NCBI RefSeq assembly: GCF_009914755.1
Contig: NC_060940.1
Length of the DNA: 64,000 nt
Direction: 5' to 3' (one strand)
DNA from: the human T2T-CHM13v2.0 reference genome, Homo sapiens
Shown one piece after another: positions 3,404 to 61,891 of the stretch. Below the pieces are notes generated by a model that saw nothing but the letters and a program-made list of their open reading frames with translations, did no database searches and was not told the DNA's origin. The translations under genes and the position numbers were made by a program. Positions within the stretch are counted from its first letter, which is position 1, and each line of letters starts with the position of its first letter.

Positions 3404-3974
3404 TGTCTTAGCCTATTTTATGTTGCTATAAAAGAATACTTGAGATGGGAGAATTTGTAAAGAAAAGAAGTGTATGTTTGTTCTGCAGGCTGAGAAGTTC
3501 AAGGGCATAGCCTTGTCTTCTGAGGGCTTTCATGCTGATCACTACATGGCAGAGAAGATCAAAGGGGAAGGGGACACATGTAAGAAGGGGAAACCTGGGG
3601 GGTGTCCTGGCTTTTTAACTTACTCTCTCGGGAACTAATCCATTCTCATGAGAGGTAATCCAGTCTCTTGAGAGCAGGAATTCACCCACTATGGCAAGAA
3701 AAGTACCCAGCCATTCATGAGGAATCCACTATGAATCACGGAGAATATGATCAATCAAAGGTAGTGATAATTCCACCATAATGAGGAGAGTAGCTTAGGA
3801 AGATGAAGGCAGCTTCCTCACCCCATCCCTTGGAGAGGACAAGACAGCAGAGAATCCTCAGACCATAATCCAAACACATTCCACTAAGCCCCACCTCTCA
3901 ACATCACCACACTGGGGATCAAATTTCAAAATGAGCTTTGGTGGGGAAAAACAAACCACGTCCAAACCACAGCT
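3404..3974 (-). mobile_element. MST (B/C-like) MaLR solo LTR with an internal foreign insert
   Basis: TGTCTTAG...CCAAACCACAGC termini, near-TSD CCCAG/CCTAG. Confidence 0.8.
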
Positions 3975-7747: not shown

Positions 7748-8656
7748 CAAGTAGTGTCAGTAGGTGGTCATATCTACCACAATGTGTCTCTTTACAAGGA
7801 CAGTGATTTGAGTGCCAGCTTCGTCATTTATTATCTTGTGACCTTGAGTAAGTGAGTCCTTATGCTCCTCTCCATCTTTAAATTAGGACTAATCATCCAA
7901 CGTTCCTCACATGGTTCTGATGATTGAATAAGACAAAATCAATGCTGAAATGGATAGAATGGGCCATGTTAGAGTGATGACCTTCAAGCTTCTTTGCAAA
8001 CTTAAGGGTTTATATGGACTGTATAAATGTAGGTTATTAGTATTATTACGATACATAGAGTAGACACATAATCAATATTGATGACACTATTGGAATAAAA
8101 TTGCCAAGACCTGAAAGTAAAAAGAGATAACCCTCCCAGGGCTCACTCACAGTGTTCAGACTTGTATTCTATGAGACATTCAGGAAGGAACCGTCATAAA
8201 GTAATAAAACTGGCCCTGCTGCACGTGGGCACACAAACTCACATGGTTCCTGAATCCTATTGTGTTCTGAGAATATCTAACAGGCAAAGGAGAAAGAAGA
8301 AAGCCTGGAGGCATTTTCTGGCTCTCTGCTGCCACACATCTTGAGATCATAAGGAGCAAGGATTAAGAATTTCCCAGGGTGACTCTGAATTCAGGATGTG
8401 AGAAATCCAGTACCATTTTGTAAACAGGCAAGCCCCAGAGGAACCACTGCCCAGTCATTACCAGTGCAACTTCTTTGCAGGAATCATAATCTGTCCCATT
8501 CCAAGGTTTAATGTGGCCCTAACGAGTCTATGAGCTGTGTGGGTGTGCTGTCCTGGGAAAATAAAAGGACTCAAAGCCCTGGGACCACTTGGTGCCTGAG
8601 CCTTCCCAAGCCGGTTCTTCTTAATGAATTTTCTCAACCCAAGTAGATGTGGATGC

Positions 8657-9016
8657 TGTCTTAATTTGGGTTGCTATAACAAAGCACCATAGACTGGGTG
8701 GCTTAAAAACAACAGAAATGTATTTATCACAGGTCTGGAGGCTGGAAATCTAAGATCAGGGTGCCAGCATGGTCACTTATGGTGAGACCTCCTTCCAGAT
8801 TGTAGATGGCCAACTTCTCGTTGTATTCTCACATGGTAGAAAAGGAGTGAGAGAGTTATCAGGGGCCCCTTTTATGTGAGCACTAATCCCATTCATGAGA
8901 GTTCCATCATCATGATCCAATTACCTCCCACAGGTGCTATCTCCTAATGCTATGGCATTGGAAGTTAGGAGTTCAACATACAAATTTCAGATGGGCAAAA
9001 CTTTCAGTCTATAACA
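8657..9016 (-). mobile_element. MLT1A solo LTR
   Basis: GCTATAACAAAGCACCATAGACTGGGTGGCTTAAAAACAACAGAAAT...TTCAGTCTATAACA. Confidence 0.88.
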
Positions 9017-10925: not shown

Positions 10926-12106
10926 TGTAATATATAGAAATGAAGTTTGGTGCATATTATGTGCTTAATATATTTTACAATCTTTCTTCCCACTTCTAAG
11001 GGGAATTCGAGTTAGCCACCCAGAATGATGTCTGTGGCCCAGCTACAATGACTACAGCTTATTTTTGTTCCCCCTGGCCCACAACTGTGGTTCACTCAAT
11101 GGGCAGCCTTTAAACACTAGGCACATAAAAAAAGAAAAGAAATACCACAAACAGGCTGACGGCGCTTGGCATCTCTCTCTTCAAATGGATGTGGTTGAAA
11201 GCTGATGAGATGTTAGAAATTCCTCTAGATCATGGCTGGGTTGTGTGGAAAGAACAAAAGGAATATTGATGTATCCCAAGGTGTTATCCTAACAGGATGG
11301 ACCGTCATGACATTCACAAATTCTGAACTGGGTTCACAGCTTATGTTCTGACCTTCCTACCCCACTGGAATAAAATCAGCTTCCTTTTTGCTCCTGCCTC
11401 TAAGACTGTTCTTAAGTTTTGAGGAGGCTCATCACCTTCTGAGACCCAAACAGAAACGGAACAACACAGTTGTGTTTTTGTTTCAACTACTCTATCTTGC
11501 TCTGGGAGACTGGTTTAATAATTTATAACTTTCTTTCTTTCTGGCTGAGTCCTGTTCACCAGTACAAAGTCATTCTTTGATTCATGAATTTTTTTTTTGG
11601 CTCAAACATATTCAGTATCTAAACCCTGCCTGTTAGTATGAGCACAGCTTCAGTCAAAGGAAGAAAGAAAAAATCTCCAGAGGAAGATTCCCAGGAACCT
11701 GCTTTGTCTTTCCCATCTCAAAGCTAGATATCATCAACATGCTTACTCAGTCCAACAAAATGCTTCAAAGTGGGTTCAGAGTTCTAGTTAAACACAAAAG
11801 GTTCTGATTGTCTCGGATTGAAGTTCTTTAAAAGCATAAAAAGAGATGCAATGCTTCAAAGGAACTAGAAACTACGAACATTTTTAAATTTACTTTTTCC
11901 TCCATCTTTTCCAGACAGGATTCCCAATAGCTTCCAACAGGACATGCAACACCACAAGGTAGTAGAAATGAAAAGGTAGAGCGAAAGTTACTAGGAAAAC
12001 AAGACAGAGGGTGTGCAATAGAACTTGCTATGAGGTTAAAAAGCAGTTTGTCATGACTTGTATTCCAGAAACTGGTGCAGCAAATATTTGGCTTTCAGCT
12101 TCCTGA

Positions 12107-16819: not shown

Positions 16820-17460
16820 GAATAATTTCAAACACGTGGTTTAGCTACACAATCTGATTGCCACTAATCCAAATTAAGATGTGGCATGTGCAGTGGTTCA
16901 CACTTGTAATACCAGCACTTTGAGATGCAAAAGTGGATGAATCACGGGAGCCCAAGAGTTTGAGATCAGCCTGGATGACACAGCAAAACCCTATCTCTAC
17001 AACAGATACAAAAATTAGCCTGACATGGTGGCATGTGCCTGTAGTCCCAGCTACTGAGGAGGATGAGGTGGGAGGATCATTTGAGCGAGAGAGGTCAAGG
17101 CTGCAGGGATCCATGATCACACCATTTCACTCCAGCCTGGGCAACAGAGCAAGACCCTGTCTCAAACCCTGCCCCTACTCAAAAACAAAACAAAACAAAA
17201 CAAAAAAAACCAACAATAACCAAATTAAGATGTGCTGTTAGTGAAAAATACGCAATAAATTTTGAAGATTTGCTACAGAAAATACATAATATCTCAATTT
17301 TCATATTGATTTCATGTTGGAATGATAAGATTTGAGCTGTATAGTGTTAAAATATTATTAACGTTATTTTTCCTTGTGTCTTTTAACTTTCTTAAATGTG
17401 CCTGTTAGAAAATCTAAAATTGCGTGTGGAGCTTGTATTATATTTCTACCAGAGAGCATT
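16820..17460. mobile_element. MER33-like hAT-Charlie DNA transposon, split by AluJ
   Basis: CCAAATTAAGATGTGCTGTTAGTGAAAAATAC...AAATGTGCCTGTTAGAAAATCTAAAATTGCGTGTGG. Confidence 0.7.
16884..17220 (+). mobile_element. AluJ
   Basis: Diverged dimer, (AAAAC)n tail, TSD CCAAATTAAGATGTG on both sides. Confidence 0.9.
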
Positions 17461-17644
17461 ATCTGTGAGATTAAAGATATGTTGCTTTAGGTTGCTAAAT
17501 TTGTGCTAATTTGTTACAGCAGCAATAAAAACTGATGTGATGTTGATAAACCTCCATCAAAATATGGGGTCTGTGATCCAGTCACTTAAACACAAGAAAA
17601 GTTTTGTGACTGCCTAGACCAACAGAACAACACTGCATGCCCTG

Positions 17645-17818
17645 CTGCCTCTGTCCAAGAGCCTTGGAACACAGCCATCTTGTGAGGAAGCCTCCAGCCA
17701 ATATCCAGTATCAACCACCACATATGTGAGTAAATGAGCTGACACGTGTTTTCAGGCCCTGGCCTTACAGTCTTCCAGGTGAGGACATAGATAAAATGAT
17801 GCGAAGACAAACCATCCC
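17645..17818 (+). repeat. Left arm of 174-bp inverted repeat (old MLT1-derived)
   Basis: Reverse complement of 18029-18202 with 11 mismatches and no gaps (counted by hand). Confidence 0.95.
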
Positions 17819-18028
17819 CACCATGCCATCTGAATTTCTCCATCTTGTTACCTTCCATATCAGCGTATGAAAGGTGGCTTGTTTAATGTCCTAGGATAAT
17901 TGGTAAACCATCAGTTTAGCATTTAAAAAGTAATCTAGATTATTTCCTCCACAATTTAAATGTCCAGAAAACTGAAACATTAGCTTTTGATAATTATGGG
18001 TCCTAGATACAAGAAACACTATATATAT

Positions 18029-18202
18029 GGGATGGCTTGTCTTGGCATCATTTTATCTATGTCCTCACTTGAAAGACTCTAAGGCCAGGGCCTGAAATCA
18101 CCTGTCAGCTCATTTACTCACATATGTGGTGGTTGATACTGGATATTGGCTGGAGGCTTCCTCACAAGATGGCCATCTTCCAAGGCTCTTGGAGAGAGGC
18201 AG
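18029..18202 (-). repeat. Right arm of 174-bp inverted repeat (old MLT1-derived)
   Basis: 18103-18173 is the exact reverse complement of 17674-17744 (71 bp). Confidence 0.95.
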
Positions 18203-18583
18203 TTAGTTGCATATATAGGTAAAATGCTCATTCTTGTCATTGGGTTTCCTCTGAGTTCCACTGATTTCCTGGATAAATCAGGTGTATATAAAATCTCACA
18301 TTCTTTTCAAGCTCAATTACCCTGCCCCACCATTTATCTTTTGCATAAACATTTCTCTGCTTCTTAATTCAAACTGTCATTGCCTTAGTTCAGGCTCTCA
18401 GAACCGCTCAGACTATCACATTCACCTATCATTTTATATGGGCTCTCCAAACCCCTAGAAATCAGGTAGTTTCAGGTAGGAGGTGATTTAGAGCACAGGA
18501 GTAAAAGAACGGGGAGAATAAAAGAGGGAAGGAGAGAAAACACTGAGCTTGTCATCACTGCAGACAACAAGGGCTTGATCCTG

Positions 18584-20468
18584 TTTTTTTTTAAGGAGGC
18601 TAAAAATAGGACTCCAATCCCTTCTAGCTTGTAGGATTTCTGCTGAGAAATCTGCTGTTACTCTGATACATTTTCCCTTACAGGTTACCTAATGCTTTTG
18701 CCTCACAGCTCTTAAGATTCTTTCCTTTGTCTTAACTTTAGATAAGCTGATGACTATGTGCCTAGGCAATGATCTTTTTGCAATGAATTTCCCAGGTGTT
18801 CTTTGGGTTTCTTGTATTCGGATATCTAGATCTCTAGCAAGGCCAGGGAAGTTTTTCTCAATTATTCCCTCAGATATGCTTTCCAGACTTTTATATTTCT
18901 CTTCTTCCTCGCGGGAACAGCAATTATTCTTAGGTTTGGATGCCTAACATAGTCCCAAACTTCTTGGAGGCTTTCTTCATTTTTTTTTTGAATTCTTTTT
19001 TTCTCTGTCTTTGATGGATTGAGTTAATTCAAAAGCCTTGTCTTCAAGCTCTGAAGTTTTTTCTTCTGCTTGTTTGATTCTATTGCTGAGACTTTCCAGT
19101 GCATTTTGCATTTCTATAAGGGTGTCCTCGATTTCCAGAAGTTGTGACTGTTTTTTACTTATGCTATCCATTTCACTGAAGAATATTCCTTTCATATCCT
19201 GTGTCATGTTTTTGATTTCTTTAAGTTGGAGTTCACCTTTCTCTGGTATCTCCTTGATTGGCTTAATCATCAACCTTCTCAATTCTTTTTCTGGCAATTT
19301 AGAGATTTTTGTCTTGGTTTGGATCCATTGCTTGTGGGCTGGTGTGATCCTTTGGGGGTGTTAAAGAACCTTGTTCTGTCATATTACCAGAATTGTTTTT
19401 CTGTTTCCTACTCATTTGGGTAGACTATGTCAGAGGAAAGATCTTGTACTCAAAGGCTGCTGTTCAGATTCTTTTGTCCCAAAGGGTGTTCCCTTGATGT
19501 GGTGTTCTCCCCCTTCCACTAGGAATGAGGCTTCCTGAGAGCTGAACTGCAGTGATTGTTTTTGCTCTTCTGGGCCTAGCCACCCAGTGGAGCTACCTGG
19601 CTCTGGGCTGGTACTGGGGAGTGTCTGCAAAGAGTTCTGTGATGTGATCCATCTTCAGGTCTCTCAGCCATGGAAACCAGGACCTGCTCTGGTGGAGGTA
19701 GCAGGGGAGTGAAGTGGACTCTGTGAGGGTCTTTGGTTGTATTTTTGTTCGGTGCACTGGTTTTGTGTTGATCGGACTTTCAAGAGTACATCCGCTGTGG
19801 TACTATTGGTAGGAAGCAAACTCGCCCTAGGGTTACCTGGTTACATATTCAGGTTTCTCAGGTGGTAGGCAGGGCCATAGAACTCCCAAGAAATTATATC
19901 TTTTGTCTTGCGCACCCAGGGTGGGTAGAGAAAGGGTAGGCCCAGAGCTAGGTGTGTCTGAGCTCAGACTCTCCTTGGGCGGGGCTTGCTGCGGCTGCTG
20001 CGGGGGATAGGGGTGTGATTCCCCAGCCAATGGAGTTATGTTTCCAGGAGGATTATGGCTGCCTCTGCTGATTCATAAAGGTGGCCAGGGAAGTGGGGGA
20101 AAGCTGGCAGTCACAGGCCTCACCATGCTCCCATGCAACACACAGTCCTAAAGGCCAGTATCACTCCCACTGTGCCCCCCAACAGTACCAAGTCTATTTC
20201 CAGGCAGCTGGTGGCCAGGGCTGAGAACTTGTTCCAGACCACCAGCCTCCCCACTGAGAAAGCAATCAGACCTTACAGTTTTTTTAGCATCTCAGGGAAA
20301 CTGTGGAAGCTACACAGTTCCTTCAGAGCATCTGTGGATTCTCTCAGCTTTCCTGGTATGTTGCCGTGGTAGTTCCTTGAGCAAAAGTTCACAATGTGAG
20401 TCTCCACAAGCTGCTCCATCTGTCCGAGCAGGAGCTGCAAGCTAGTCCTGCCTCCTATCTGCCATCTT
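18584..20468 (-). mobile_element. L1PB-like 5'UTR plus N-terminal ORF1, 3'-truncated
   Basis: Starts AAGATGGCAGATAGGAGGCAGG on the minus strand; ORF 18977-19297 gives an ORF1p coiled-coil-like peptide (EMQNALESLSNRIKQAEEKTSELEDKAFELTQS). Confidence 0.88.
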
Positions 20469-20760: not shown

Positions 20761-22349
20761 GTGACAAATACACATCATAATCTTTTCCCTCCTTCCTTTC
20801 CATACTTACCTCTCACCATTCCCCACCATGCATTTCAGTACTTTATTTGTATCAAAATCTTTGCCTGCTTTGAAACACATCAGTCACTTTTAAGCCTCTG
20901 TTCCTATGCATACACATTTTTATTTCGTTATACAATTCTGTCTTTCCTAGAAGAAATAAAACAGAGAGGAAAATTATGTCTTTTTAACTATATAATCCAA
21001 TAGTCTAATATATCACTTATTTAACAATATGATCAATGTATCCTCCAGGCACTGTGCTAGGTGACAGATATCCATGTTGACCAAGACAGACTTTCTCTGC
21101 CCTTGTGGGAAGTATATTCAAGCAAGGAATATACTCACATGTTTCTGACTATTTATTCTTTTATTGTAGAGGTGTTTTCCTCTTGGAAATCAAGAAATGA
21201 AAACATGGATAAATTTCAAAAAACAAGTAACTGAATGGAATTGAGTAAAAAAACTTTAGAATAAGCTGCCGTCATTTTAAATTTATTTTACAGGGAAAAT
21301 TTATTTTATATGTACAAGGAAGTTGGGATATATAGTTTGGACCCTCTGCCACTACCCCCAGACCATGGTCTCTTTACCAGTCTGTGTTATATTTTTATCT
21401 TTCTGCAAAAAGTGGTGAGAAACTACTATGACAAGTCATATCAGCATCCTGTGATCTAAATCACCACTTCTTTTAAGAATAACAAGTTCTTTTGCATGTT
21501 TATTTTATTTATGTTTGACAATCATTGTAGTCAATATCTGAGAATTAGATGAACTATGTAAAAAAAAATCAAATTCCTCTAATGGTTAGAAATAAAATTA
21601 TCCCTTGTTATAGGTAAAATCCTGATGGAATCAGCTATTGATTGTCTGGCATATACCTTGGAACAGTTGATCCAATTGTAGACATTTTCTGTAAGGCTCA
21701 ATGATTCTCTCATGTCAGATGCCTCCCAAATCCTGCACTCTTTAAAACCCAGACACGGAAGCCTGACTGCAAGCTTTTGGCTGAAAGACTAACATGGTAT
21801 TTAAAAAGTAAAAGACTTTGGTCTCCTTTGTCCCACAAAGTTCAAATTTCCCCTACAGCAATAAACACCTTATCTGAGATGTATGCAGTATGGGCTAAAG
21901 TCTTCAACCATGAAATTATATGACTCTACCTTGACCTCTGGTTTTCTCCAGTGAATCTCACTGATAGAATACAAACAGCAGCTCTGGGCTGTTTCTCTGA
22001 TCCATTCCGTGAATTCTGTAAATCTTGAGGAATGCAGACTTCCATACAAAGGTGTTCAGGTAGCAGCGACATCTTTATCTGTCCTCACTTACCCTGGGCA
22101 ATACTGAGCGGGCCCAGGGACTCATGCTACATGATGTATGTATCTGACCGTTTTCCTGTCCATGCCTCCAGCAGGCAAGGAAGAGACTGGGCTCCCTCCG
22201 GATGTGAAAACCAAGGCCTTGTTACAGTGATGAGTAATGCTGATAAAATGCTATGTTGAGGCAGAAAACCAATCCCCCCAATTTGGTCTGACCGCTTACT
22301 GTAATTAGGAATGGTTTTCAGCTAACCTCTGGAATGTGTGATATAATGT

Positions 22350-58320: not shown

Positions 58321-59047
58321 AGTAGTCTCATCCATTGTCCTAGTCTGAGCTGGCCTATCTCTCTCATTGTGGAACATTTCCTACCTTCTCCTACTCTCTC
58401 CTGACAGCTGCTTTTGCTGCTAATAAATCCTGCCTGTGATATCACAATGCATTGTAGCAGCTGGCTCAGAGTCAAGACATCAACACATGAATCAGACAGG
58501 ATGAGAGGAGGATAAGGCTAAAGACAGAGGCTCCAGCTACCTTGGTGACAAGGAATGGAGGAGAAAAGGAACAGGAAATTTTAATAAGATTAGGAGGGCT
58601 TGCTTTTCTGCCAAGTGAGGTGGGTTTAAACTTCTTCCTGTGTTCACTACCTAGTTTGTCTGAGTTAGGCAATTGCTTGAGGGAGAGGTAGCTAATCAGG
58701 AATTTGGCAACCAAGAGGAAAAACTGCAAAATAAATCGACCATCTGATGTTCAGGAAGAAGAAGGAAGGAAAGAAGGAGGGAGGGAGAGTGAACAAAAGG
58801 AGGGAAGGAGAAAAAGAAGCACCATTCCCCTTCCTGACATGCCTGCCTTGGACACATTTCCAGCATGGTAGAAATAGGCTTCCCAAGACTCACACAATTA
58901 AGAATTAGTTTTCTAAAATTTGATGTCCATAAGAGTAAGTTCAATTCCACGGTGGCACCCAAGTCCATTCAAAATATTCCTTCTGAACTTTCCCTCTCCA
59001 TCTCTGGGCACCCCATCTCCATGTGTACATAGAAAGATGTAGTAACA

Positions 59048-59345
59048 GGCCAGGCATGGTGGCTCACACCTGTAATCCCAGCACTTTGGGAGGCTGAGAT
59101 GGGCAGATCACTTGAGGTCAGGAGATCAAGGTCAGCCTGGTCAACATGGTGAAACCCTGTCTCTACTAAAACTACAAAAATTAGCCTGGTGTCCTGGCGC
59201 ACACCTGTAATCCTAGCTACTCAGGAAACTGAGGCAGGAGAATCTCTTAAACCTGGAGGCAGAAGTTGCAGTGAGCTGAGATTATGCCACAGCACTCCAG
59301 CCTGGGTGACAGAGAGAGACTCTGTCTTAAAAAAAAAAAAATAAA
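59048..59345 (+). mobile_element. AluS
   Basis: Full Alu, TSD AAAGATGTAGTAACA. Confidence 0.94.
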
Positions 59346-59529
59346 AAAAGATGTAGTAACAAAGTTTAAGTGTTTACTCAGTGTCAGGTTCTATATCTGC
59401 ATTCTTTCATTTAGTCTTCTCAGCAACCCTGGAGAATGTCCCATTATTATCCTTATTTTCTTTACAATAAAACTGAGGCTTAGCAATATTACATTATTTT
59501 CTACAGTCACAGATTTAGCGTGATGTTGA

Positions 59530-59892
<363 letters not shown>

Positions 59893-60676
59893 AGTAAATT
59901 TTTTTTAAAAGAACAATACTTTATATGTGAATGTATGTATATGTTGCTTAGTATGTATCAGCCTCTGCCCAAGACACCAGGGATACAGTGGTGAACAGCA
60001 CAGAGGTAGAGAGGTCATACAGCTCTTCAAGATGGAACAAGTAGCAAGCAGTAGAATGGGGATCCCAACCCTAGTCTTCAACTTTCAATTTTATTTTTCT
60101 ATTACACTCAGCTGTTCTCCAATTCCCACGTCTTCATATTCAAAGACGCTATTAACCTACCCCATCACCACCACCTGGGGCCTGCAAAGCAAAGCAAATG
60201 GAGTTAGCATCTTTGTAAATACGAATTGTCTGAGTCGGAACTCATCGGACCCAGGGAAATGCCATTCCCTGTTTTTCAAAGAGAGTAGAAATGCTATTGA
60301 TCTCCCAGAGAAAACATGAGGCTCAGAATATAAGCACTGAAGAGCTGGTTCTCGCGCCATGTGATCCGGCCAGGATGATTTCCCTTCATAGATCCTCATC
60401 GGTAGATTGAGAAGGATGGACGAGCTGGTTCCCAGGTTCCCTTAGCCTTTGTGGGAAGAAATGTGTTTGCAGTAGTTCCCTAAAACTATTAGTTCAAAAC
60501 TCTTCAAGACAGGGAGTTTAATGAAAAGTTAGGGGGACAAAAGTTTGACTAACGGAAGCACAGTCTTTTAAATTCCTCTTACTCTGCCAATCTTTTGCTG
60601 ATCAATATGCTGGATCACACTCTAAGGCGTAATTGGCTGCAAGATTCTCCTAAGGGCTTTAAAATTCAGAGCCCAC

Positions 60677-61100
60677 TGGGAGGCTGAAGCTGGAGGATCA
60701 CTTAAGGCCAAGAGTTTGAGACCAGCCTAGGCAACAAAGCAAGATTCTGTTTCTACTAATAAGATAAAATTAGCCTGGCAAGGTGGCACACACCTGTAAC
60801 CCTAACTACTCAGGATGCTGAGGTGGGAGGAGCACTTGAGGCCAAGAGTTTGAGACCACTCTGGGCAGCATAACAAGATGCTTCTCTACTAAAAAATAAG
60901 GAATTAGCCGTGCATGGTGGTGCATGCCTGTAGTCCTAGCTACTCAGGAGGCTGAGGCAGGAGGATCACTTGAGCCCAGGATTTCCAGGCTGCAGTGAGC
61001 TATGATCATACCATGCACTCCAGCCTGGGTGACAGAGTTAGACCCTGTCTCTAAAATATAAAATAAAATAAGAAAATAAAATAAAATAAAATAAAATAAA
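60677..61100 (+). mobile_element. AluJ with an extra monomer (trimer)
   Basis: Two successive left-arm 3' halves with linkers, then one right arm and a (TAAAA)n tail. Confidence 0.85.
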
Positions 61101-61580
61101 GACATCCAAGCTTTATCAGGAGAGAATACACATAGGTAATTGTGTTGGTGAATTTCTGGGGCTTCATTCAATAGAAATTCTTCTACGACAACAGTCATCC
61201 TTAGCTTTCTCTTCTCCAGAGTCTAGGTGCAGGGTAGGAGTTAAAAGCTTGAATTCACACATCAGTCAGGAAAGATCTGCGTAAAACTGTCATCCCTTAA
61301 TTTCTCTTAGCCTGTTTCTAAGGGGATATTTCTATGAGGATAATTATAGTACTTCCCTCTTTGGGTATAGTCAAACCAGTTTATGTAAGTATAGCTTAGC
61401 CCATAGCAGAAAGGTAATGAGATGTTCAACTGATCAATAATGAAGTCTACAGGGTAATAGATGTCCCTGAGCTCCTCAGAATATTGTCATACTGACTTAG
61501 ATAGTTCATTACCACATTCCAGTATTAACATGCTGTCTTAATTGCAGAGAGGCCCTGTTACTAATAACAATATTTAGCAA

Positions 61581-61868
61581 TTTTTTTTCTTTTTTGAGAT
61601 GGAGTCTTGCTCTGTTCCCCAGCCTGGAGTACGGTGGTGCCATCTCGGCTCACTGCAACCTCTGCCTCCCGGGTTCAAGCAACTCTCCTGTCTCAGTACC
61701 CTGAGTAGCTGGGATTACAGGTGTGCACCATCATGCCTGACTATTTTTAGTAGAAACGGGGTCTCACCATCTTGGCCAGGCTGGTCTCCAACTCCTGACT
61801 CCAAGTGATCCATCCACCTCGGCCTCCCAAAGTGCTTGGGTAACAGAGGTGAACCACCATGCCCGGCC
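61581..61868 (-). mobile_element. AluS
   Basis: Antisense Alu, TSD TATTTAGCA(A/C)TTT. Confidence 0.92.
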
Positions 61869-61891
61869 TATTTAGCACTTTCTAACTGGAC

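What the first reader, a model, noticed from the sequence alone, without database searches (positions are those of the whole stretch)
17645..18202. Homogenised 174-bp inverted repeat (71-bp perfect stem) made of ancient MLT1 LTR sequence
Seen: 17645-17818 and 18029-18202 are reverse complements with 11 mismatches in 174 bp (about 94%) and no gaps. They contain a perfect 71-bp core and enclose a 210-bp spacer. Known: old MLT1 copies are far more diverged from one another than this. Just inside the arms both sides seem to continue as dissimilar MLT1-like 3' sequence, which suggests two old opposed LTRs whose centres were later made alike. Inference: the arms are kept similar by intrachromatid gene conversion or by selection on pairing. 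They could form a long RNA hairpin (ADAR, Dicer or PKR substrate) or a DNA hairpin, and could drive recurrent inversion of the spacer. A simpler alternative is a single primate-era inverted duplication.
Basis: partly seen in the sequence, partly recalled or inferred. Interest (0 to 1): 0.72.

Follow-up and report, generated by a model that had tools for sequence, protein, structure and literature searches.

The report
Small unique inverted duplication on chr16
A 174-base stretch of intergenic human DNA lies twice, in opposite directions and 210 bases apart; it is most likely an ordinary one-off copying accident of primate age, not two ancient virus remnants kept alike.

Summary
Arms 17645-17818 and 18029-18202 are reverse complements with 11 mismatches in 174, no gaps, a 71-nt perfect run and a 210-nt spacer. 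In the T2T genome each arm matches only itself and its partner. Similarity stops abruptly at all four arm ends. The spacer and both outer flanks are unique, and neither inner flank resembles the conserved LTR 3' tail. So "two old opposed LTRs with homogenised centres" is not supported. Arm divergence of 6.3% (95% CI 3.2-11%) puts it roughly 15-33 My ago, using recalled rates. I could not confirm with tools that the arms are MLT1. There is no repeat library here, and only a weak, strand-specific, non-collinear likeness to LTR bodies. The one demonstrable LTR remnant is a 5'-truncated 3' end at 17463-17539. Two oddities remain. Three clustered differences create a perfect 14-nt palindrome in the right arm, which looks like one template-switch event. 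All six transversions are complement-type. No transcript is annotated over the repeat. Interest is low.

The parts
17645..17818 (+). Left arm of the inverted repeat (174 nt, GC 0.49, 2 CpG)
   Evidence: In the whole T2T genome it matches only itself (100%) and the right arm (94%).
17819..18028 (.). Spacer (210 nt, GC 0.33), unique sequence
   Evidence: The genome search finds only itself. Its two halves are not reverse complements of each other: score 8 against a shuffle mean of 8.2. No significant likeness to 20 LTR tails or to whole LTR copies.
18029..18202 (-). Right arm of the inverted repeat (174 nt, GC 0.48, 0 CpG)
17674..17744 (+). Longest perfect run (71 nt) of the left arm; pairs with 18103-18173
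   Evidence: Run-length probability 0.03-0.08.
18166..18179 (.). Perfect 14-nt palindrome inside the right arm. It is made by the three clustered arm differences (18174, 18175, 18177). The left arm has only 4 of 7 pairs at the matching place.
   Evidence: Self-hit of 14 nt at 100%. The longest local stem through these sites is 7 in the right arm against 4 in the left; the background maximum is 6. This is the pattern print describes for template-switch conversion of a near-perfect into a perfect inverted repeat (PMC5453318, passages).
17463..17539 (+). 5'-truncated 3' end of an old dispersed LTR. It is a neighbour, not part of the repeat, and the only stretch here with demonstrable family relatives.
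   Evidence: 39 other genomic places at 79-95% identity, all inside this stretch (173 candidates, 40 scored); 20 of 20 fetched loci match it; homology among copies stops within a few bases of 17539-17541, so sequence to the right is flank.

Best explanation
A single inverted duplication. About 174 nt of intergenic DNA was copied once in reverse-complement orientation 210 nt away. The likely cause is a replication template switch or break repair that used the nearby sequence as template. The copied DNA is now unique in the genome and may derive from a very old LTR. Since then both arms have decayed without constraint, including one small secondary template-switch event in the right arm. The event dates to roughly the catarrhine period, about 15-33 My as a point estimate. 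The structure can fold as a long hairpin on paper, but nothing shows that it is transcribed or used. Shown: the repeat, its uniqueness, its sharp ends, its divergence. Inferred: the mechanism, the date and the lack of function.
For: The arms match only each other in the 3.1-Gb genome (a 24-mer with up to 3 mismatches gives 2 own places plus 1 other, control 0; that other place does not extend beyond 21 nt). Sharp ends: inner and outer flanks score at the shuffle mean (8 vs 8.2, 682 of 1000 shuffles as good; 10 vs 9.7, 498 of 1000). The spacer and both flanks are each unique. Neither inner flank resembles the conserved LTR tail, and none of the four flanks resembles whole LTRs. In a power control on 190 pairs of real family copies, the tail-equivalent flank was detectably similar in 190 of 190 pairs. 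Divergence is 11/174 = 6.3%, JC 6.6%. No multi-copy family and no convincing target-site duplication. Small inverted duplicates are pervasive in the human genome (PMC5398296, passages), and template switching is a described way of making them (PMC5453318, passages; PMC2583991, passages). The arm length (174 nt) and the longest identical tract (71 nt) are below the printed minimal segments for efficient homologous exchange: over 200 bp in mouse, 337-456 bp in human (PMC3966225, passages).
Against: No outgroup genome was available, so presence or absence of each arm in other primates is untested, and source and copy could not be told apart. The mismatch spectrum is odd for plain neutral decay: 6 of 11 differences are complement-type transversions and none is A/C or G/T. 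That gives P about 0.004 at an assumed 16% share (the share is recalled). The 71-nt perfect run is mildly long (P 0.03-0.08). No microhomology or duplication marks the junctions. The flank test has low power for the outer side: only 48 of 190 real pairs were detectable there, and the 20 copies were chosen by tail similarity. PMC2583991 also reports exchange between close repeats through matches under 50 bp, so some conversion cannot be excluded.
Confidence: 0.6

Rival explanations
1. An older inverted duplication that has been partly re-homogenised since it formed. Occasional arm-to-arm conversion or hairpin-templated repair resets parts of the arms, so the 6% divergence understates its age.
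For: The 71-nt perfect run is mildly longer than expected (P 0.03-0.08). One template-switch-type event is visible inside the right arm. There is an excess of C/G differences (5 of 11), and print ties C>G changes to double-strand breaks and interlocus conversion: +27% in segmental duplications, +40% in conversion regions (PMC10172114, passages). Close repeats can exchange through short matches (PMC2583991).
Against: 94% identity is far below that of converting palindromes (over 99%, abstracts listed). The arms are shorter than the printed minimal segments. Mismatches lie on both sides of the perfect run, so no clear tract boundary stands out. The counts are tiny. The printed C>G enrichments (1.3-1.4 fold) are much smaller than the roughly five-fold excess seen here.
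Confidence: 0.2
2. Two ancient MLT1 LTRs inserted independently, tail to tail, and their centres were later made alike by intrachromatid gene conversion.
For: The arms show a weak strand-specific likeness to LTR bodies: sum-of-pairs z 3.4 and 4.2 with 0 of 100 shuffles as good, against z -0.6 on the opposite strand. The right inner flank has a faint, non-significant tail likeness (z 1.5, 17 of 200; 3 of 20 loci align there at tail positions). From recall, with no call behind it, the arm reads like the centre of an older MLT1-type LTR.
Against: There is no similarity between the two inner flanks or the two outer flanks. The left inner flank shows no tail likeness (z -0.4), although the tail was the best-kept part of the LTR in 190 of 190 control pairs. 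No flank resembles whole LTR copies on either strand. The local matches of the arms to LTR bodies are scattered and not collinear, and a MAFFT placement test was not significant (z 1.7 and 1.3).
Confidence: 0.07
3. The pairing is kept by selection because the locus makes a functional long RNA hairpin, such as a small-RNA precursor or an editing or sensor substrate.
For: The predicted RNA fold is -351.4 kcal/mol against a shuffle mean of -143.5 (z -31.9). Some expressed inverted duplicates are argued in print to be functional (PMC5398296, abstract and passages).
Against: No annotated transcript covers it; the nearest lncRNA exons end at 11235 and begin at 20859 (gene table). There is no Rfam match on the arms at E up to 10. 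All 11 differences break pairs, and the alignment has no site where both arms changed while keeping a pair. The strong fold is an automatic result of any inverted repeat.
Confidence: 0.05
4. A non-autonomous DNA transposon with long terminal inverted repeats, or an assembly artefact.
For: It has the arm-spacer-arm shape.
Against: There are no other copies of arm, spacer or whole unit in the genome. No abutting target-site duplication: the longest shared flank word of the whole unit is 5 nt and does not abut the arms. A fold-back artefact would be expected to give identical arms, not 11 differences (inference).
Confidence: 0.03

Closest known systems
Small intergenic inverted duplicates of mammalian genomes (Chen et al. 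2017, PMC5398296; passages seen)
   Same: Two reverse-complement arms with a spacer under 1 kb and a stable predicted hairpin. With 174-nt arms it falls in that paper's longest class (36-10,000 nt, the top fifth).
   Different: That survey concerns millions of mostly much shorter pairs. I could not see whether this locus is in its catalogue, because supplements are closed. No expression is known here.
Template-switch mutations that create or perfect inverted repeats (Loytynoja and Goldman 2017, PMC5453318, passages; related titles and abstracts listed)
   Same: The three clustered differences that give the perfect 14-nt palindrome at 18166-18179 fit the classic case of a near-perfect repeat made perfect. 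The whole duplication could be a larger event of the type that creates an inverted repeat.
   Different: The passages I saw do not give the range of event lengths. From recall, most described events are tens of bases, so a 174-nt copy placed 210 nt away would be at the large end. Larger fork-stalling events reviewed in PMC2583991 span far greater distances. No ancestral sequence was available to prove the direction of change.
Large sex-chromosome palindromes kept alike by arm-to-arm gene conversion (PMC8981503 and PMC3723533, abstracts only)
   Same: Arm-spacer-arm layout on one chromatid.
   Different: Those arms are kilobases long and more than 99% to 99.9% identical. Here the arms are 174 nt and 94% identical, on an autosome and without genes.
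ERVL-MaLR LTRs (MLT1, MST, THE1; PMC10735291 passages; PMC5753468 passage)
   Same: The neighbouring fragment at 17463-17539 shares the 3' end of a large, old dispersed LTR family. By recall of its terminal motif I take that family to be MaLR. The arms show a faint same-strand likeness to that family's bodies.
   Different: The arms have no detectable relative elsewhere in the genome, no tail downstream, and no located LTR ends. No tool here carries repeat names.

Membership tests
ERVL-MaLR LTR, MLT1 type (claimed for the arms) | Significant similarity to a named reference of the family | not testable with these tools
Making or typing a consensus is barred. Rfam holds no such family and gave no match on the arms.
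ERVL-MaLR LTR, MLT1 type (claimed for the arms) | Detectable relatives dispersed in the same genome | tested here: not met
   The genome search finds only the two arms. A 24-mer with up to 3 mismatches gives 2 own places plus 1 place that does not extend. nhmmer against the 64-kb window plus 20 LTR loci found nothing beyond the arms themselves at E up to 10. Against 200 kb of chr16 the best hit was E 0.55. Pairwise search is weak for very old copies, so this does not exclude an ancient origin.
ERVL-MaLR LTR, MLT1 type (claimed for the arms) | Similarity to the bodies of known copies, same strand, collinear | tested here: inconclusive
   Sum-of-pairs scores against 23 bodies give z 3.4 and 4.2 (0 of 100 shuffles as good) on the forward strand only. 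The best local matches are scattered and out of order. MAFFT placement gives z 1.7 and 1.3. Six further bodies give z at most 2.4.
ERVL-MaLR LTR, MLT1 type (claimed for the arms) | Conserved 3' tail downstream of the centre, as in the 20 fetched copies | tested here: not met
   Left inner flank z -0.4 (132 of 200 shuffles as good). Right inner flank on the minus strand z 1.5 (17 of 200). The tail-equivalent was detectable in 190 of 190 control pairs.
ERVL-MaLR LTR, MLT1 type (claimed for the arms) | Defined LTR termini with a short target-site duplication (feature recalled, not from a call) | not testable with these tools
   No LTR ends could be located around either arm. The flanking direct words are short, do not abut the arms, or are low in complexity.
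Old dispersed LTR family of loci L001-L020 (for the fragment 17463-17539) | Similarity to many dispersed copies, ending at their shared 3' terminus | tested here: met
   39 other genomic places at 79-95% identity (173 candidates, 40 scored). 20 of 20 fetched loci match at 79-91% (mean z 25). Homology among copies and with the window stops within a few bases of the same point. The copies are related to each other for up to about 450 nt upstream; the window fragment is related only from 17463.
Old dispersed LTR family of loci L001-L020 (for the fragment 17463-17539) | Name and subfamily (MLT1 versus MST or THE1) | not testable with these tools
The 20 copies are heterogeneous, with per-locus median identities of 68-86%. 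The window copy at 35116-35606 reaches 88% to one of them. 'MaLR' rests on my recall of the terminal motif.
Gene-converting palindrome | Arm-to-arm identity above 99% | tested here: not met
   163 of 174 = 93.7%, against over 99% and over 99.9% in print (abstracts).
Gene-converting palindrome | Uninterrupted identity long enough for efficient exchange | tested here: not met
   The longest identical tract is 71 nt. Printed minima are over 200 bp in mouse and 337-456 bp in human (PMC3966225), with exceptions under 50 bp for close repeats (PMC2583991).
Gene-converting palindrome | Arms cluster by species rather than by position | not testable with these tools
   No other primate or mammal genome is on hand.
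Small inverted duplicate (Chen et al. 2017 definition) | Two reverse-complement arms, spacer at most 1 kb, stable hairpin fold | tested here: met
   RNA fold -351.4 kcal/mol, z -31.9. DNA fold -206.2 kcal/mol, z -31.2.
Non-autonomous DNA transposon with terminal inverted repeats | Several copies plus an abutting target-site duplication | tested here: not met
   It is a single locus. There is no abutting duplication.
Template-switch (quasi-palindrome) mutation, for 18166-18179 | A cluster of changes that all complete a local perfect inverted repeat | tested here: met
   3 of 3 clustered differences complete a 7+7 palindrome in the right arm; the left arm has 4 of 7 pairs. The direction of change is inferred, because no outgroup was available.

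The most novel reading that the evidence does not exclude
The repeat is a small self-renewing fragile site. The hairpin-prone arms are repeatedly broken and repaired from each other or from themselves. The odd differences between the arms would be the footprint of that repair: every transversion is complement-type, five are C/G, and there is one template-switch cluster. On this reading the pair is much older than its 6% divergence suggests and is kept partly alike by mechanism, not by selection.
Probability: 0.1. Interest if true: 0.45.

Novelty: new member of a known kind. Interest (0 to 1): 0.15.

Why it matters
Little rides on it. If the plain reading holds, this is one more neutral inverted duplicate among the millions catalogued in the human genome. 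It is useful only as a clean, datable example with sharp ends and a visible secondary template-switch event. It would matter more if primate comparisons showed the arms evolving in concert. That would be an unusually short autosomal repeat undergoing arm-to-arm conversion, and the C/G-rich difference spectrum could then be read as a repair footprint.

Tried and rejected
Multi-copy young repeat inserted twice: rejected, because there is no third copy in the genome. Transposon with inverted ends: rejected. Known RNA family or microRNA precursor: none on the arms at E up to 10. Arms as the body of the LTR whose tail lies at 17463-17539: rejected, because that LTR ends at about 17539 and the arms lie downstream of its 3' end.

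Finding arm relatives:
- genome DNA search;
- a 24-mer with mismatches;
- nhmmer and blastn against 20 LTR loci and the window;
- nhmmer against 200 kb of chr16;
- Smith-Waterman against 20 LTRs one by one, against 23 bodies summed and against 6 further bodies;
- MAFFT placement into an alignment of 21 copies.
Only the summed test gave a signal, and its matches were not collinear.

APOBEC-like context for the C/G differences was looked at by eye on the contexts. No consistent pattern appeared, and no claim is made. Junction microhomology and flanking duplications gave nothing convincing.

Papers: no paper in the library names the three lncRNA genes of the window. A search for MLT1 with 'inverted repeat' and 'hairpin' listed 7 papers, and none is about such a locus by its title or abstract. 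Supplements were not requested. The insertion lists of PMC10735291 and the catalogue of PMC5398296 might bear on this locus, but I did not see them.

Full report
**1. The observation**

The repeat is exactly as described. The repeat finder reports arms 17645-17818 and 18029-18202, 174 nt, 94% complementary, 210 nt apart. A base-by-base comparison gives 11 mismatches, no gaps and a longest perfect run of 71 nt at 17674-17744. Such a match cannot arise by chance: P is 2.5e-83 for one given pair. It is the strongest of the 10 inverted pairs of 60 nt or more within 3 kb in the 64-kb window. As single strands the 558 nt fold into one long hairpin. The RNA fold is -351.4 kcal/mol against a shuffle mean of -143.5, and the DNA fold is -206.2 against -59.9, both with z about -31. 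This follows automatically from the repeat.

**2. Uniqueness**

In the whole T2T genome the arm finds only itself and its partner. Each of these finds only itself:
- the 103 nt left of the left arm;
- the spacer;
- the 358 nt right of the right arm.

A 24-mer from the perfect core, allowing 3 mismatches, has 2 own places and 1 other, with 0 in the reversed-pattern control. That other place matches over 21 nt only. So this is neither a young repeat inserted twice nor a multi-copy element with inverted ends. RefSeq's soft mask (stretches of 100 nt or more) covers nothing between 17170 and 18689.

**3. What is demonstrably viral here**

A search with 17430-18300 returned 39 other genomic places. 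All fall within window 17457-17541, at 79-95% identity (173 candidates, 40 scored). I fetched 20 of them.
- All 20 match the window only in 17461-17548.
- They are related to one another for up to about 450 nt upstream of this shared end, with per-locus median identities of 68-86%.
- Their mutual homology stops within a few bases of the point that corresponds to window 17539-17541.

So 17463-17539 (+) is the 5'-truncated 3' end of an old, abundant LTR family. Sequence to its right, including the left arm, is flank of that LTR, not its body. Other copies of the family in the window are a full one at 35116-35606 (-) and tails at 8650-8767 (-) and 26581-26669 (-). From recall of the terminal motif I take the family to be ERVL-MaLR; no tool here carries repeat names. 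The passages I read say that all MLT1 members except MLT1A1 and MLT1C2 are widespread in eutherians and absent from opossum, while MST and THE1 are found only in primates, six of them emerging within the last 70 My (PMC10735291). The mutual divergence of the 20 copies fits an old family. It does not separate MLT1 from MST.

**4. Are the arms MLT1?**

I could not show it. Results against:
- blastn of the arm, the spacer halves and the flanks against the 20 loci gave 0 of 20 matches at E up to 1e-3;
- nhmmer found nothing beyond the arms themselves in the window plus 20 loci at E up to 10;
- nhmmer found only an E 0.55-1.1 hit in 200 kb of neighbouring chr16;
- one-by-one Smith-Waterman scores were at background, with mean z 0.67 and 0.95;
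- the best local matches of the arms to LTR bodies are scattered and not collinear;
- a MAFFT placement test gave z 1.7 and 1.3, against 3.8 for the tail control;
- six further LTR bodies gave z at most 2.4.

One result in favour: summed over 23 LTR bodies, the arms score above all 100 dinucleotide shuffles on the forward strand (z 3.4 and 4.2) and not on the opposite strand (z -0.6).

By recall alone, the left arm and about 25 nt inside it read like the centre of an older MLT1-type LTR. That is a lead, not a test. Pairwise methods are weak for copies that are each some 30% from their ancestor. The sensitive test needs a family profile or reference, and I left that out (see referred steps).

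**5. Two old LTRs with homogenised centres?**

The evidence is against it.
- The two inner flanks score 8 as reverse complements, against a shuffle mean of 8.2 (682 of 1000 shuffles as good).
- The outer 200 nt score 10 against 9.7 (498 of 1000), and the outer 300 nt score 10 against 10.4.
- Against the 20 real tails, the left inner flank gives z -0.4 and the right inner flank (minus strand) z 1.5, with 17 of 200 shuffles as good.
- Against whole LTR copies, none of the four flanks on either strand exceeds |z| 0.8.

Power control: among the 20 real copies, the tail-equivalent segment was detectably similar in 190 of 190 pairs, the centre in 117 of 190 and the outer segment in 48 of 190. Two opposed LTRs pointing their tails into the spacer should therefore have been seen on the inner side. 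The outer side is a weak test, and the copies were selected by tail similarity. Converting palindromes in print keep more than 99% identity over kilobases (abstracts). Here identity is 93.7% over 174 nt and the longest identical tract is 71 nt. That is below the printed minimal segments for efficient exchange, although short matches suffice for some closely spaced repeats.

**6. Age**

Raw divergence is 11/174 = 6.3% (exact 95% CI 3.2-11.0%) and the JC and K2P distances are 6.6%. With recalled per-lineage rates, the split of the arms falls at:

| Rate per site per year | Estimate | CI |
|---|---|---|
| 1.0e-9 | 33 My | 16-60 |
| 1.2e-9 | 28 My | 14-50 |
| 2.2e-9 | 15 My | 7-27 |

Counting the three clustered differences as one event gives 9 events, or 5.2%. 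From recall, about 6% is close to human-macaque neutral divergence. The duplication, or the last resetting of the arms, is therefore of primate age, far younger than the LTR family next door.

**7. Oddities**

(a) The differences at 17670, 17672 and 17673 (partners 18177, 18175, 18174) turn a 4-of-7 quasi-palindrome in the left arm into a perfect 14-nt palindrome at 18166-18179 in the right arm. This is the pattern print describes for template-switch mutation (PMC5453318). It also bounds the 71-nt run on one side.

(b) All 6 transversions among the 11 differences are complement-type (5 C/G, 1 T/A), and there are no A/C or G/T differences. P is about 0.004 at an assumed 16% share and 0.0008-0.012 for shares of 12-20%. 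The shares are recalled, the sample is tiny, and I looked at several patterns. Print links C>G changes to double-strand breaks and to interlocus conversion in duplicated DNA, but by factors of only 1.3-1.4 (PMC10172114). I leave this unexplained.

(c) The 71-nt run has P 0.03-0.08.

**8. Function**

Nothing supports one.
- The repeat lies between two minus-strand lncRNA genes: 2.7 kb beyond the 3' end of one and 6.4 kb upstream of the start of the other (gene table).
- No annotated transcript or RefSeq functional element overlaps it. The nearest is an 'H3K27ac hESC enhancer' at 19563-20064.
- There is no Rfam match.
- All differences break pairing and none is compensated.
- No paper in the library names the neighbouring genes.

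**9. Verdict**

This is a real but ordinary small inverted duplicate. It most likely arose from one template-switch or break-repair event in the catarrhine period, in DNA that may descend from a very old LTR. Homogenisation of two ancient LTRs is not supported. A minor role for later arm-to-arm repair cannot be excluded without primate comparisons.

Noticed in passing
window 35116-35606 (-): Full-length copy (about 490 nt) of the same old LTR family as the tail fragment beside the repeat. 17 of the 20 fetched loci match it, the best at 88% identity.
   Followed up: partly
window 8650-8767 (-) and 26581-26669 (-): Two more 3' tails of the LTR family (12 and 4 of 20 loci match) whose upstream bodies do not match the 20 loci. 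They may belong to other subfamilies. The arms do not match those bodies either (z at most 2.4).
   Followed up: partly
window 17253-17290 (+): A faint second tail-like stretch about 200 nt left of the clear tail fragment. 11 of 20 loci place their last roughly 45 nt there, and sum-of-pairs gives z 3.5 with 1 of 200 shuffles as good. It may be a badly decayed further LTR end.
   Followed up: partly
window 16946-17210: A masked repeat with an A-rich tail. It gives sub-threshold Rfam hits to SRP RNA and mir-1268, as an Alu would.
   Followed up: no
window 59044-61872 and 2273-2360 / 3780-3867: The other inverted pairs of the window. One is a cluster of 63-131-nt pairs at 72-86% identity, in a stretch that gives the few-locus blast matches I read as Alu. 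The other is an 88-nt pair at 86%, 1.4 kb apart, of unknown nature.
   Followed up: no
window 19563-20064: RefSeq functional element 'H3K27ac hESC enhancer', 1.4 kb right of the repeat. A weak 25-nt palindrome lies at 19940-19985 inside it.
   Followed up: no
window 17636-17641 / 17822-17827 and 18021-18027 / 18211-18217: Short direct words flank each arm. A 6-nt word lies near both ends of the left arm (128 of 2000 shuffles as good). A 7-nt alternating A/T word lies near both ends of the right arm (36 of 2000; low complexity). Neither abuts its arm, and I do not read them as target-site duplications.
   Followed up: yes
window 17775 and 17803 (left arm): Two of the 11 differing sites pair with each other in a local 6-bp stem that exists only in the left arm (arm positions 126-131 with 159-164). 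This is within the background range, whose maximum is 6.
   Followed up: partly
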